Assembly (NCBI RefSeq): GCF_024502345.1
Contig: NZ_JALDNN010000001.1
Length of the DNA: 64,000 nt
Origin: Escherichia coli
GTDB lineage: Bacteria; Pseudomonadota; Gammaproteobacteria; Enterobacterales; Enterobacteriaceae
Direction: 5' to 3' (one strand)
Each line of letters starts with the position of its first letter. Positions within the stretch are counted from its first letter, which is position 1. Position numbers: made by a program. Below are positions 27,001 to 33,000 of the stretch, piece after piece.

Positions 27001-30000
27001 CATCTTCAACGCCCAGACGTAACGCTTTGGCAATATCTGCCATATTTTCAGTGGCAGATATCACCAGAACTGGGGTCTGGTCGCCTCTGTTACGTATATG
27101 CTCCAGCAGTTTAAGCCCGTTCATTCGTGGCATCGCGATATCACATATCATCAGGTCTGGAGTGAAACCTCCCAGCAACTCAAGGGCATCCACCCCATCA
27201 GCCGCCAGTACCGTTGTCGCTCCCAATGAGGAAAACCACGAATCCAGAAGCGAGCGAAATACCTGCTCATCTTCAACAATGAGAATCTGTTTTCCGACCA
27301 ATGGCTGCGTCATGTTCTCTCCCCTGACTGGCTTTACTCAATAGTGGCATGCTATTGCCACCTGCGCCTGTCAGAATTAACTTAAGTGTAGATAAAAATT
27401 CTGGTCAAATGTTGGTGCGTACCAACGGCAAAAGTTCGTCCATTTTCTTTTCCACTGCCAGCTGCCCGGCCGCAATGGCAGCGTGCGCGCGATGGAAATC
27501 AAGCGTAGATATTTGCGGGCAAACAGGTTGAATCAGAATATCGGGCGGATCACCTGCCATGCGGTTCCTTTTAAGGCGGTTCTCCAGCACCTGGATAGAA
27601 GTGGTCATAATCTCTGTTGCCGTTGGTGCTGTCACCGCCCGACGTGTCGTTATGCTGCCTAACCTTTCTTTCAGACGCGCATGCCACGGCAGAGAATCAC
27701 CATTCTCGCTATTTTCTTCACTGACATTAAAGGAGAGCAAATCTTGTTGCATCAAATGAGCATCGTGCTGCAGGTCGACCGCTATCACAATGTCAGCACC
27801 CAATGCACGCGTGAGCGAAATAGGAATTGGGTTAACGACTGCCCCATCAACCAGCCAGTAGCCGTTATGCGCAACGGGTGCCATTAGTCCTGGAATACTG
27901 CATGATGCGCGAATAGCAAGATGGAGATCGCCTTCAGTAAACCATAATTCACGCCCCGTACTTAAATTGGTGGCAACAGCCGCGAAGCGACGGGAACAAT
28001 TTTCGATCTCTGTTTCCGGCATTATTTCGCGGTATTGATTGAAGACACGCTCGCCGCGCAGTAACCCACCGCGCTGCCAGGAGAGATCCATCAGGCGTAA
28101 AACATCCCAATAACTGAAAGAGGTTACCCAATCTTCCAGCGCAGATAATCGATCGCATGCATAGGCCGCGCCCACCAGCGAACCAATTGAACATCCTGCA
28201 ACGATATCAATTTCAATACCCACTTTTTTTAGCGCATTAATAACGCCAATATGCGACCAACCTCTCGCCGCGCCAGATCCCAGCGCCAGCCCTATTTTTA
28301 TCTTTCTCATTATTCCCGCAAGATTCCCCTGGAATGCAATCGTAGCCACATCGCTACTGCTCGGTTAACATAGTGCTACTCAGGCGGTTAATACGCCGTT
28401 ATTGTTTCCAGGGAGATTATTTGTGTCTCAGCTTTGTCCCTGTGGTAGTGCTGTCGAGTATAGCCTATGTTGCCACCCTTATGTGTCTGGTGAAAAGGTT
28501 GCACCTGATCCAGAACATCTCATGCGTTCGCGTTACTGCGCTTTTGTGATGCAAGACGCAGATTATTTAATAAAGACCTGGCATCCATCTTGTGGGGCAG
28601 CGGCGTTACGTGCCGAATTGATTGCCGGATTTGCGCATACTGAATGGTTGGGATTGACCGTATTTGAACATTGTTGGCAGGACGTCGACAATATCGGATT
28701 TGTCAGTTTTGTTGCTCGATTTACCGAAGGTGGCAAAACAGGTGCAATAATTGAACGTTCGCGATTTTTGAAAGAAAACGGTCAATGGTACTATATTGAC
28801 GGTACACGTCCGCAGTTTGGCCGCAACGATCCCTGCCCTTGTGGTTCAGGTAAAAAATTTAAAAAGTGCTGCGGCCAATAATGGTTGACGGTACGGTTTA
28901 GCAAACACTCTCAACAAGGTTTTTCCAGCAATGCATTCACTCCAACGTAAAGTTCTGCGTACTATTTGTCCGGACCAAAAAGGTCTGATCGCACGTATTA
29001 CCAATATTTGCTACAAGCACGAGTTAAATATCGTACAGAACAATGAATTTGTTGATCACCGTACCGGGCGCTTTTTTATGCGCACGGAACTGGAAGGGAT
29101 TTTTAATGATTCCACCCTGCTGGCGGATCTCGATAGCGCATTGCCAGAAGGCTCCGTGCGTGAGCTGAATCCTGCCGGTCGTCGCCGGATAGTGATTCTG
29201 GTCACTAAAGAAGCGCATTGCCTTGGCGATTTGTTGATGAAAGCCAATTACGGCGGCCTGGATGTCGAAATCGCGGCAGTTATTGGTAACCACGATACTT
29301 TACGTTCTCTGGTTGAGCGTTTTGATATACCGTTTGAGCTGGTAAGCCATGAAGGGTTAAGCCGCAACGAGCACGATCAAAAGATGGCGGATGCCATTGA
29401 TGCTTATCAACCTGACTACGTGGTGCTGGCGAAGTATATGCGGGTATTAACACCGGAATTTGTGGCACGCTTCCCGAATAAAATCATCAATATTCACCAT
29501 TCATTCCTGCCAGCGTTTATCGGCGCACGTCCTTATCACCAGGCCTATGAACGTGGCGTGAAGATTATTGGCGCAACAGCTCACTATGTGAATGACAATC
29601 TGGACGAAGGCCCAATCATCATGCAGGACGTTATTCATGTCGATCATACCTACACAGCTGAAGATATGATGCGCGCAGGTCGTGACGTCGAGAAAAACGT
29701 CTTAAGTCGCGCGCTCTACAAAGTACTGGCGCAGCGCGTCTTTGTTTACGGTAATCGGACGATTATTCTTTAATCGCCAGCAAAAATAACTGGTTACCTT
29801 TAATCCGTTACGGATGAAAATTACGCAACCAGTTCATTTTTCTCAACGTAACACTTTACAGCGGCGCGTCATTTGATATGATGCGCCCCGCTTCCCGATA
29901 AGGGAGCAGGCCAGTAAAAAGCATTACCCCGTGGTGGGGTTCCCGAGCGGCCAAAGGGAGCAGACTGTAAATCTGCCGTCATCGACTTCGAAGGTTCGAA

Positions 30001-33000
30001 TCCTTCCCCCACCACCATCTCAAGCATTACCTCGAAATTTGAATTACCCCTGGTGGGGTTCCCGAGCGGCCAAAGGGAGCAGACTGTAAATCTGCCGTCA
30101 TCGACTTCGAAGGTTCGAATCCTTCCCCCACCACCATCACTTTTCAAAAGTCCGTAAACTCTCAAACGAATCCGCAATTAAATATTCTGCCCAAGCGGGG
30201 AAGGATGAGAAGCTTCGACCAAGGTTCGACTTGAGCGCCAGCGAGAGAGCGTTGCCGCAGGCAACGACCCGAAGGGCGAAGCGCGCAGCGCTGAGTAATC
30301 CTTCCCCCACCACCATCGCTTCCTGAAATAATCAAAACCTGTTACTCCGAGCTAATTTTGCCCAATGGCACCACGTTTACCGGACCTACAATATCCTCCC
30401 CTGTAGGTCGGATAAGCGAAGCGCATCCGACAACTCACCCCGCACCGTGCCCATAAAAAAACCCCGCCGAAGCAGGGTCTATGTGAACTAAAATTCGCTT
30501 AGTGACGAGCGCGCACCAGCTGGTACTTACGTGTCAGATACTCCACCGGTACGCTCCAGATGTGTACCAGACGCGAGAACGGGAACAGCAGGAATAACGT
30601 CATCCCCAGCACCAGGTGTAGACGGAAGATAAACGCCACACCATCGAGGTGTTGAGAAGCGCCACCGTGGAAGGTCACCACCGACTGCGCCCAGCCAACC
30701 AGTTTCATCATCTCGCTACCGTCCATATGCTGAGCGGAGAATGGAATGGTCAGCAGGCCCAGCGCGCACTGGATAACGAGCAGCGACAGGATCAGGATAT
30801 CCGCTCCGGTAGTGGTTGCACGCACGCGTGGGCTGAACAGACGACGCTTCAGCAACAGCACGCCGCCAATCAGACACAGCACACCGCTGGCACCACCAGC
30901 AAACATCGCCATTTTCTGTTTCACTTCAATCGGCAGCCAGGCTTCATACATCCAGTGCGGCGTCAGCATACCGAAGAAGTGACCAACAAAAATCCCCAGA
31001 ATACCGATATGGAACAGGTTCGACGCCAGGTTCATCCCTTTGCGATCCAGCATCTGGCTGGACGCCGCGCGCCAGGTGTACTGCCCGTAGTCATAACGCA
31101 GCCAGCTACCAATCAGGAAGACCGCCCCGGCTATGTACGGGTAGATATCAAAGAAGAACATATTCAGGAATTGCATTAGTGCTGTCCTCCGGTGGTGATA
31201 TTCAGATATTGCGGCGCGACGGCACCGGCAAAGCGACGCTGATGAGCAGTGATTGCTGAATCACCGCAGCCTTTGTCAGCAAAGAATTTAACCTGCTCTT
31301 CTTCCCAGACAGCATCCAGCGCCTGCGGCGTATCGTCGCGCGCTTCGTCGGCAATTTTTTCCGCCACTTTGTCGCTGTCGATAGCGGTATTCGCCAGTTT
31401 CATCAGCAGATCAAACAGCACGGCATAACGGCTTTCACGCTGTTGCAGACGCGCGCTCAGCAATGCCAGAATCGGCGCGATATCTTTCAAACCTTCCACG
31501 GCTTCGCTTTGCGGTAGCTGCGCCAGGTACTCCAGATACAGCGGCAGATGGTCCGGCAATTCGCGGCTGTTTAACTGCAAGCCGTGCTGCTCGTACTGCG
31601 CCAGCAGGTCCACCATCGCCTGGCCGCGGTCGCGGGATTCGCCGTGCACATGTTCAAACAGCAACAGTGACGTGGCGCGGCCACGGTCGAACAGTTCGCT
31701 GTACTGCGCCTGGGCATCGAGCGGATCCATCGTCGTTAAATCGCGCAGGAAAATGCCCAGCGCATGGGCATCCTCTTTTGGCAGATTTTTCGACGCGGCA
31801 ATCGCCTCAAACATCTCTTGTTGATGCTGCCATAAGGCAGCATCCGGATATTCAAGGAGACGCGATACAATCACGAGTTCGATCATGGATGCGGCTCCGT
31901 TTTGCTGGTCACATCGATGGCATCGATACGACGGCTGTTGAACAGATTGAATTTGGTATCTGAACCGTGGCAGCCATCACCAAAGGTAAAGCCGCAGCCA
32001 TTTTTCTCCGGGAAGGCTTCCCGTGCCAGTTCACGATGACTACTCGGCACCACAAAGCGATCTTCGTAGTTAGCAATCGCCAGATAACGGTACATCTCCT
32101 GTGCCTGGGCTTCGGTCAGACCGACCTCTTCCAGCGCACGGGTATCCACTTTCCCGTCAACGGTTTCAGCACGTTTGTAATGACGCATCGCCAGCATACG
32201 TTTCAGCGCGCGCAGTACCGGTTTGGTATCACCGGCGGTCAGCAGATTCGCCAGATACTGTACCGGAATACGCAGGCTTTCGACGTCTGGCAGAATGCCG
32301 TTGCTACCCAGCTCACCCGCGTCTGCTGCAGACTGAATCGGAGACAGAGGCGGCACGTACCAGACCATCGGCAGTGTGCGATATTCTGGATGCAGCGGCA
32401 GCGCCAGTTTCCATTCCATTGCCATTTTATAAACCGGCGACTGCTGTGCGGCTTCAATAACGCTCAGCGGAATACCGTCTTTAATCGCCTGCTCGATGAC
32501 TTTCGGATCGTTCGGATCGAGGAACACCTCCAGCTGACGCTGGTAAAGATCTTTCTCGTTCTCGGTGCTGGCTGCACGTTCAATCGCGTCGGCATCGTAC
32601 AGCAGCACGCCAAGATAACGGATACGACCGACACAGGTTTCTGAGCACACGGTCGGCTGACCCGCTTCAATACGCGGATAGCAGAAGATGCACTTCTCAG
32701 ACTTACCGCTCTTCCAGTTGAAGTAGATTTTTTTGTACGGGCATCCGGTGATGCACATACGCCAGCCACGGCATTTATCCTGGTCGATCAGGACGATGCC
32801 ATCTTCTTCACGCTTGTAAATCGCACCGCTCGGGCAGGTCGCCACACATGCCGGGTTCAGGCAGTGTTCGCACAGGCGCGGCAAATACATCATAAAGGTG
32901 TTTTCGAACTGGCTATACATCGCCTTCTGGATGTTGTCGAAGTTCTTGTCTTTCGCCAGTTTGTCAAACTCACCACCCAGGTCATCTTCCCAGTTCGGCC

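What the first reader, a model, noticed from the sequence alone, without database searches (positions are those of the whole stretch)
29933..30317. Compact tyrT-tyrV arrangement with only one distal repeat unit
The two tRNA-Tyr genes are separated by only 34 bp, and only one repeat unit of about 181 bp (ending in a third copy of the tRNA 3' end CCTTCCCCCACCACCAT) follows tyrV before unique sequence and a REP element. Classical descriptions of the K-12 tyrT locus, as I recall them, include a longer intergenic spacer and about three 178-bp distal repeats. This may be a recombinational contraction within the repeat family, which would also change rtT RNA dosage.
Basis: partly seen in the sequence, partly recalled or inferred. 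Interest (0 to 1): 0.3.

Follow-up and report, generated by a model that had tools for sequence, protein, structure and literature searches.

The report
Common short allele of tyrT-tyrV locus
The window carries the well-known E. coli tyrosine-tRNA operon in a short form (two tRNA genes 34 bp apart, one RtT repeat) that differs from K-12 but matches about a fifth of sequenced E. coli and several other enterobacteria, so it is ordinary.

Summary
Two identical tRNA-Tyr(GTA) genes lie at 29933-30017 and 30052-30136, 34 bp apart. One RtT unit follows (30137-30317; Rfam RF00391, 134 bits), then unique sequence, a REP element and narI. MG1655 has a 209-bp spacer, made of a diverged 175-bp RtT unit plus the same 34 bp, and three 178-bp distal units.

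The short form is not a special contraction. The locus varies widely. In an evenly spaced sample of 60 of 5,426 complete E. coli genomes, 11-13 had exactly the window's architecture and 12 had K-12's. The rest had other combinations: 1-4 tRNA genes, 0-5 RtT units, or an inserted gene cluster. About half of E. coli genomes have the 34-bp spacer.

The same architecture occurs in Salmonella enterica arizonae, Enterobacter, Lelliottia and Atlantibacter, and the long form also occurs in many genera. All differences are whole-unit indels bounded by shared direct repeats, so unequal recombination or slippage is the likely mechanism. The direction of change cannot be decided, and K-12 is not a valid ancestor. 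This is a known locus with a common allele and low interest.

The parts
28931..29773 (+). purU (formyltetrahydrofolate deformylase), upstream neighbour as in K-12
   Evidence: 280-aa ORF. Annotated purU at the syntenic position in E. coli records.
29855..29882 (+). tyrT promoter (TTTACA-16 nt-TATGAT, followed by the GC-rich GCGCCCCGC discriminator)
   Evidence: Promoter scan gives 10 of 12 matches. Window 29852-29901, read by eye, matches the K-12 tyrT promoter homology arm lhm-T2 printed in PMC2887954.
29933..30017 (+). tRNA-Tyr(GTA), tyrT position
   Evidence: ARAGORN; Rfam tRNA 53.4 bits; 100% identical to K-12 tyrT.
30018..30051 (+). 34-bp inter-tRNA spacer, the conserved pre-tyrV leader
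   Evidence: Sequence. The same 34 nt, with one mismatch, ends the 209-bp K-12 spacer. Homologous leaders of about 34-37 nt occur in many genera in both compact and long forms.
30052..30136 (+). tRNA-Tyr(GTA), tyrV position
   Evidence: ARAGORN; Rfam; identical to the first copy.
30137..30317 (+). Single distal RtT repeat unit (RtT RNA proper 30184-30315), ending in the 19-nt copy of the tRNA-Tyr 3' end
   Evidence: Rfam RF00391 at 134.2 bits, full length 1-130. 19-mer at 30297-30315. 100% identical to unit 1 of E. coli O111:NM 08-4377 and 92-94% identical to the K-12 units.
30205..30234 (+). Remnant of the 'tpr' reading frame: 9 codons then TGA
   Evidence: Translation scan gives MRSFDQGST* here, against 29 aa in K-12 unit 1 only.
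30403..30431 (.). REP-type palindromic element
   Evidence: Match to GTAGGYCGGATAAG-N7-CATCCGRC, with 0 expected by chance. The REP consensus used is from my own knowledge.
30459..30480 (-). Intrinsic terminator of the convergent narGHJI operon
   Evidence: Terminator scan: 9-pair stem followed by a T-run on the - strand.
30499..31176 (-). narI, downstream neighbour as in K-12
   Evidence: 225-aa ORF. Annotated narI in syntenic E. coli records.

Best explanation
This is the chromosomal tyrT-tyrV-rtT operon of an Escherichia coli/Shigella-type genome, in one of its common natural allelic states.

Its layout is: tyrT promoter, tRNA-Tyr, a 34-nt leader, tRNA-Tyr, one RtT unit. The whole is presumably transcribed as one precursor and processed into two tRNA-Tyr and one RtT RNA.

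The locus is built of three nested direct-repeat systems:
- the 119-bp 'tRNA plus 34-nt leader' module;
- the ~178-bp RtT unit;
- the 19-nt AATCCTTCCCCCACCACCA shared by the 3' ends of the tRNA and of every RtT unit.

Unequal homologous recombination or replication slippage between these repeats repeatedly adds and removes whole modules. This generates alleles with 1-4 tRNA genes, a spacer with or without an RtT unit, and 0-4 or more distal RtT units. The window's allele (2 tRNA, no spacer unit, 1 distal unit) is one frequent outcome. It is not a peculiarity of this genome.

Shown here: the anatomy, the exact repeat-bounded indel boundaries, and the population and cross-genus distribution. Inferred: the recombination mechanism, co-transcription and processing.
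For: Anatomy.

K-12 comparison: the K-12 spacer is a 175-bp RtT-type unit plus the same 34 nt. The two alleles therefore differ by exactly one unit bounded by the 19-mer, and by two whole distal units.

Architectures seen in complete E. coli genomes:
- tRNA-34 bp-tRNA + 1 RtT: Combat11I9 and O18ac:H14 873.10, which has 10 differences in 2051 bp.
- Compact + 2 RtT: O111:NM.
- Long + 2 RtT: O157:H7.
- Long + 3 RtT: K-12.
- Four tandem tRNA-Tyr + 1 RtT: strain D10.
- Compact + 0 RtT with a 7-gene insert: CCUG 73778.

Census of 60 genomes evenly spaced through 5,423 matching genomes: 11 window-like, plus 2 with an adjacent IS4; 12 K-12-like; 3 with a single tRNA; 4 with five RtT; 2 with none; 8 with the narI-side flank matched elsewhere in the record.

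Spacer-junction sample: 35 of 59 junctions were tRNA-tRNA and 24 of 59 were RtT-tRNA.

Outgroups: among 60 scorable Enterobacteriaceae species, 34 were compact and 25 long. Rfam verified compact + 1 RtT in Salmonella enterica subsp. arizonae, Atlantibacter subterranea, Enterobacter quasihormaechei, E. cloacae and Lelliottia nimipressuralis. The 34-nt leader is conserved in both forms.
Against: Nothing contradicts it.

Limits:
- The census is a sample of 60 with architectures read from span lengths and RefSeq annotation, not a full count. Three RtT x3 rows were ambiguous between compact+3 and long+2.
- The collection is biased toward clinical and laboratory strains.
- The recombination mechanism is inferred from the indel boundaries and was not observed.
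- Expression and processing were not tested.
- Where the operon terminates in a one-unit allele is unknown.
Confidence: 0.9

Rival explanations
1. A recent, lineage-specific recombinational contraction from a K-12-like ancestor (long spacer plus three distal units).
For: The differences from K-12 are exactly repeat-bounded deletions. The window's single unit resembles K-12 unit 1 at some 5' sites (CAATTAAAT) and K-12 unit 3 at 3' sites (CCCAAGCGGGG, GACTTGAGC). A first-unit/last-unit fusion would look like this.
Against: The same architecture, with near-identical sequence, is found in about a fifth of complete E. coli genomes from diverse serotypes and hosts. It is also found in five other genera or species. 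The window's unit is 100% identical to unit 1 of an O111:NM two-unit allele, not to any K-12 unit. A first-and-last-unit character is also expected if multi-unit arrays grew from a single unit, so the chimera pattern does not give direction.
Confidence: 0.07
2. The compact one-unit form is the ancestral state, and K-12-type alleles are expansions.
For: Compact spacers are slightly more frequent than long ones across Enterobacteriaceae species (34 to 25) and in E. coli. Compact + 1 RtT occurs in distant genera.
Against: The spacer-type RtT unit is a distinct, old lineage. It is only 68% identical to the distal units but 85-96% identical to spacer-position units in E. albertii, Citrobacter, Klebsiella, Kluyvera and others. 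The long form is therefore also ancient, and the state at the root cannot be decided from these data.
Confidence: 0.3
3. Assembly artefact: tandem 119-bp and 178-bp repeats were collapsed by a short-read assembler, so the real strain has more units.
For: Tandem repeats of this size are near or beyond short-read length, and collapse is a known failure mode (general knowledge). I do not know how the window was assembled.
Against: The identical architecture is present in many finished, complete genomes. All junctions in the window are sequence-consistent with those genomes.
Confidence: 0.03

Closest known systems
E. coli K-12 tyrT operon (tyrT-tyrV-rttR/tpr). From my own knowledge it was described by Egan & Landy 1978, Rossi et al. 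1981 and Bosl & Kersten 1991; the last is cited in PMC3318445.
   Same: Same flanking genes (purU, narI). The promoter sequence is identical, the two tRNA-Tyr genes are identical, and the 34-nt pre-tyrV leader is the same with one mismatch. The RtT unit is of the same family, and its last unit has the same junction to unique sequence and REP.
   Different: The window lacks the 175-bp RtT-type unit inside the spacer and two of the three distal units, so it has 1 RtT against 4. It has no intact 29-aa tpr frame. Its repeat period is 179 bp, against 178 bp in K-12, because of one extra T.
Compact one-unit alleles in complete E. coli genomes (for example Combat11I9, O18ac:H14 873.10, O145:H28 RM13514, O104:H21)
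   Same: Identical architecture and spacing, with 99.5% identity over about 2 kb.
   Different: Only a few point differences, for example 10 in 2051 bp against strain 873.10.
tyrTV-RtT loci of other Enterobacteriaceae (Salmonella enterica arizonae, Enterobacter cloacae, Lelliottia, Atlantibacter)
   Same: purU-linked, with two tRNA-Tyr genes 34-36 bp apart and exactly one Rfam-scoring RtT.
   Different: The spacer and RtT sequences have diverged. The downstream genes were not examined.

Membership tests
tyrT-tyrV tRNA-Tyr operon of Escherichia | Two tandem tRNA-Tyr genes with anticodon GUA, identical to K-12 tyrT/tyrV | tested here: met
   ARAGORN. 100% identity over 85 nt to both K-12 genes.
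tyrT-tyrV tRNA-Tyr operon of Escherichia | Chromosomal position between purU and narI | tested here: met
   ORFs. RefSeq annotation of syntenic records.
tyrT-tyrV tRNA-Tyr operon of Escherichia | tyrT promoter with a GC-rich discriminator upstream of the first tRNA | tested here: met
   TTTACA-16-TATGAT at 29855-29882. Window 29852-29901 matches, by eye, the K-12 promoter arm printed in PMC2887954. Promoter activity itself was not tested.
tyrT-tyrV tRNA-Tyr operon of Escherichia | Co-transcription of both tRNAs and RtT from one promoter, followed by processing | not testable with these tools
   PMC2887954 states that tyrT and tyrV share the tyrT promoter in K-12. There are no expression data for this genome.
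RtT RNA (Rfam RF00391) | Full-length covariance-model match above the gathering score | tested here: met
   134.2 bits against 45, model positions 1-130 of 130, window 30184-30315.
RtT RNA (Rfam RF00391) | Unit lies downstream of a tRNA-Tyr and ends in the copy of the tRNA-Tyr 3' end | tested here: met
   19-mer at 30297-30315, one of three copies in the window with 0 expected. The unit directly abuts tyrV.
RtT RNA (Rfam RF00391) | Released as a stable RNA from the tyrT transcript | not testable with these tools
   Rests on the literature for K-12 (Bosl & Kersten 1991, as cited in PMC3318445).
tpr (29-aa protamine-like ORF inside an RtT unit) | Intact 29-codon reading frame starting at GGATGAGAAGC | tested here: not met
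   The frame stops after 9 codons in the window. It is intact only in K-12 unit 1 and O111 unit 2 among the loci examined.
REP (repetitive extragenic palindrome) | Imperfect palindrome matching GTAGG(C/T)CGGATAAG...CATCCG(A/G)C in an intergenic region | tested here: met
   Single match at 30403-30431, with 0 expected by chance. The consensus is from my own knowledge.

The most novel reading that the evidence does not exclude
Copy number at this locus (1-4 tRNA-Tyr genes, 0-5 RtT units) might be a selected, rapidly reversible 'dosage dial' rather than neutral repeat instability. It could, for example, tune tRNA-Tyr supply or RtT-linked stress signalling. It could also buffer against anti-phage effectors that inactivate tRNA-Tyr; phage tRNA-Tyr evades retron and other defence systems according to the abstracts of PMC11555353 and bioRxiv 10.1101/2023.03.15.532788 listed. 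On that reading the window's allele would be one setting of the dial. Nothing here tests selection. The evidence shows only that many states coexist within species and recur across genera.
Probability: 0.07. Interest if true: 0.45.

Novelty: already known. Interest (0 to 1): 0.08.

Why it matters
It matters little as a discovery. The practical lesson is that K-12 is not a neutral reference for this locus. The tyrTV-rtT region is a hotspot of whole-module copy-number variation, so differences from MG1655 in spacer length or RtT number should not be read as lineage-specific events. The poor conservation of the tpr frame, and the existence of natural alleles with zero RtT units, also bear on how dispensable RtT and tpr are.

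Tried and rejected
1. Exact genome counts from BLAST coverage statistics, using junction-specific queries. This failed because the tool joins neighbouring pieces and the RtT 3' end shares 19 nt with the tRNA, so the '>=80% coverage' counts mix architectures. I used evenly spaced samples with annotated features and span lengths instead.

2. Literature search for the classical descriptions and for any published survey of allelic variation at tyrT. Bosl & Kersten 1991 (PMC329039) is not held, and no survey paper was found. The classical references are therefore cited from memory.

3. A first REP pattern with wrong spacing found nothing. The corrected pattern matched.

4. Single-sequence folding of the RtT unit. 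It was no more stable than shuffles (z = -0.44), so it adds nothing beyond the Rfam covariance match.

5. Polarising the change (contraction or expansion) from unit-by-unit sequence comparison and from outgroups. The result was inconclusive, because both forms are ancient.

6. Identifying the source strain. The best complete E. coli matches are 98.9-99.4% identical over 18 kb, with an IS1 present in the window, so it is an E. coli/Shigella-type chromosome. The exact lineage was not resolved, and Shigella is not in the collection.
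Full report
**1. The observation**

The region was read directly. ARAGORN finds exactly two tRNA genes in the 64-kb window. Both are tRNA-Tyr with anticodon GTA, at 29933-30017 and 30052-30136 on the + strand.

The repeat finder shows a 92-nt direct repeat with 119-bp spacing, which is the two tRNA genes. It also shows a three-copy family built on AATCCTTCCCCCACCACCA with spacings of 119 and 179 bp. That 19-mer occurs three times in the window, at 29999, 30118 and 30297. None was expected in 100 dinucleotide-preserving shuffles.

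The spacer 30018-30051 is 34 bp. The 181 nt after the second tRNA (30137-30317) contain a full-length match to Rfam RtT (RF00391) at 30184-30315, scoring 134.2 bits against a gathering score of 45. A scan of the whole window finds no other RtT or tRNA.

Upstream lie purU (28931-29773) and a strong sigma-70 promoter match, TTTACA-16-TATGAT, at 29855-29882. Window 29852-29901 matches, by eye, the K-12 tyrT promoter homology arm printed in PMC2887954. Downstream lie unique sequence, a REP-type palindrome at 30403-30431, the narGHJI terminator on the minus strand and narI (30499-31176).

**2. The comparison with K-12**

The MG1655 locus was fetched as L001. RefSeq annotates it as tRNA-Tyr, RtT, tRNA-Tyr, then three RtT.

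The K-12 spacer is 209 bp. It consists of a 175-bp RtT-type unit that ends in the same 19-mer, followed by the same 34 nt as in the window with one mismatch. After tyrV come three 178-bp units.

The window differs from K-12 by absence of exactly the 175-bp spacer unit, an indel bounded by the 19-mer, and by two fewer distal units. The window's single unit is 92-94% identical to each K-12 distal unit. It is 100% identical to the first unit of an E. coli O111:NM strain that has two units. The K-12 spacer unit is only 68% identical to the distal units.

**3. How unusual the short form is in E. coli**

It is not unusual. A search of 5,426 complete E. coli genomes with the 861-bp locus found single-piece, full-length matches at up to 99.5% identity. 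One example is strain Combat11I9, which RefSeq annotates as purU, two tRNA-Tyr 34 bp apart, one RtT, narI.

Individually inspected records show a wide range of architectures:
- compact + 2 RtT (O111:NM);
- long spacer + 2 RtT (O157:H7);
- four tandem tRNA-Tyr with 34-bp spacers + 1 RtT (strain D10);
- compact with no RtT and a 7-gene cluster inserted between tyrV and narI (CCUG 73778).

For a census I used a synthetic query made only of the two unique flanks, and listed 60 records at even steps through the ranking. Architecture was read from the annotated features and the span length. The result was:

| Architecture | Genomes (of 60) |
|---|---|
| Window's architecture (2 tRNA, 1 RtT, span 2050-2051 bp) | 11 |
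| Same, with an IS4 nearby | 2 |
| K-12 architecture (RtT x4), many of them K-12 derivatives | 12 |
| Five RtT | 4 |
| Two tRNA and no RtT | 2 |
| Single tRNA | 3 |
| Only the purU-side half matched in the best place (2-3 places in the record) | 8 |
| Intermediate combinations | remainder |

Three RtT x3 rows were ambiguous between compact+3 and long+2. For the eight half-matched rows I assume the CCUG 73778 type of insert, but I inspected only that one record, which came.

A second sample used a spacer-junction query. It gave 35 tRNA-tRNA junctions and 24 RtT-tRNA junctions out of 59.

So about half or more of E. coli genomes have the 34-bp spacer, and roughly a fifth share the window's entire architecture. 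E. coli O18ac:H14 strain 873.10 has the same architecture with 10 differences in 2051 bp. Attempts to get exact counts from coverage statistics failed, because neighbouring BLAST pieces are joined.

**4. Outside E. coli**

Eighty purU-linked loci from species-representative genomes of Enterobacteriaceae were fetched. They were scored with BLAST against the tRNA and the RtT units.

Of 60 scorable species, 34 have a compact spacer, mostly 34-37 bp, and 25 have a long spacer that contains an RtT-type unit. Eleven have compact + one distal unit.

Rfam confirmed the window's architecture, two tRNA-Tyr 34-36 bp apart and exactly one RtT, in Salmonella enterica subsp. arizonae, Atlantibacter subterranea, Enterobacter quasihormaechei, Enterobacter cloacae and Lelliottia nimipressuralis. 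It confirmed long forms in E. albertii, Citrobacter youngae, C. amalonaticus and Klebsiella michiganensis.

The 34-nt leader in front of the second tRNA is conserved across genera whether it follows a tRNA or an RtT unit. Spacer-position units in other genera match the K-12 spacer unit at 85-96%. Both forms are therefore old.

**5. Mechanism**

The locus consists of nested direct repeats: the 119-bp tRNA-plus-leader module, the ~178-bp RtT unit, and the 19-nt 3' end common to both. All observed alleles differ by whole modules whose boundaries fall on these repeats.

The simplest explanation is unequal homologous recombination or replication slippage. From my own knowledge, this is the classical behaviour of the duplicated tRNA-Tyr genes, as in the instability of su3+ (Russell et al. 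1970). That step is inferred here, not shown.

The direction of change for this genome cannot be determined. The mixed character of the window's unit, with 5' sites like K-12 unit 1 and 3' sites like unit 3, fits deletion and also fits the growth of arrays from one unit.

**6. Function**

The tRNA-Tyr gene dosage at this locus is the same as in K-12, at two copies. RtT copy number is 1 against 4.

The function of RtT is poorly defined. It has been linked to processing of the tyrT transcript and to the stringent or stress response, as summarised in bioRxiv 10.1101/2024.07.17.603846.

The 29-aa tpr frame is not intact in the window, where it stops after 9 codons. It is also not intact in O157:H7, Combat11I9, Salmonella arizonae or Enterobacter cloacae. 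Natural alleles with no RtT exist. PMC3318445 likewise lists rttR as lost in two E. coli lineages. These points argue that RtT copy number is not strongly constrained.

**7. Verdict**

The locus and its parts are already known, and interest is low.

Noticed in passing
window 30205-30234 (+): The 'tpr' protamine-like reading frame inside the RtT unit stops after 9 codons (MRSFDQGST*). Among the loci examined it reaches 29 aa only in K-12 unit 1 and O111:NM unit 2. It is 5-9 aa in O157:H7, Combat11I9, Salmonella arizonae and Enterobacter cloacae. This suggests tpr is not a conserved coding gene.
   Followed up: partly
window 37457-37479 (+): An exact IS1 terminal inverted repeat. The best E. coli matches to 22000-40000 lack about 780 bp here, and thousands of plasmid and chromosome places match part of the query. 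This fits an IS1 insertion in an IS-bearing E. coli/Shigella-type genome.
   Followed up: partly
window 47221-47286 and 47756-47821 (-): Two rdlD-type antitoxin RNAs (Rfam RF01813, 91 and 84 bits), that is, tandem ldr/rdl type I toxin-antitoxin modules.
   Followed up: no
L004 / L087 (E. coli CCUG 73778, NZ_CP041337.1 1497684-1504710): In this strain the RtT units are absent. A 7-gene cluster fills the gap between tyrV and narI, starting 17 bp after tyrV: fatty acid desaturase, sterol desaturase, PAP2 phosphatase, F390 synthetase-related protein, MBL hydrolase, epimerase and a KAS III-like protein. In 8 of 60 sampled genomes the narI-side flank was likewise not joined to the purU side, which may reflect the same insert, but those records were not inspected.
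   Followed up: partly
L005 (E. coli D10, NZ_CP010157.1) 1211-1652: Four identical tRNA-Tyr genes in tandem, each separated by the same 34-bp spacer, followed by one RtT. Citrobacter sp. MGH106 (L018) has three complete copies plus a 70-nt partial fourth. This shows the 119-bp module itself expands.
   Followed up: partly
L011, L013, L016, L030, L037, L052, L066, L086 (about 5000-5150 in each): In several Citrobacter, Kosakonia, Phytobacter and Cedecea genomes, the first element after purU is a roughly 70-nt partial tRNA-Tyr-like sequence (89-92% identity) that runs into a short RtT-type segment, ahead of the intact tRNA genes. It may be a decayed tRNA/RtT hybrid module.
   Followed up: no
window 29988-30009 / 30107-30128 versus 30197-30218: The 5' stem of RtT (GGGGAAGGATGAGAAGCTTCGA) is 86% complementary to the T-arm and acceptor 3' half of tRNA-Tyr. 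By eye, RtT also contains a CTTCGACCAAGGTTCGA segment resembling the tRNA T-arm. This hints that RtT units derive from tRNA-Tyr 3' halves.
   Followed up: no
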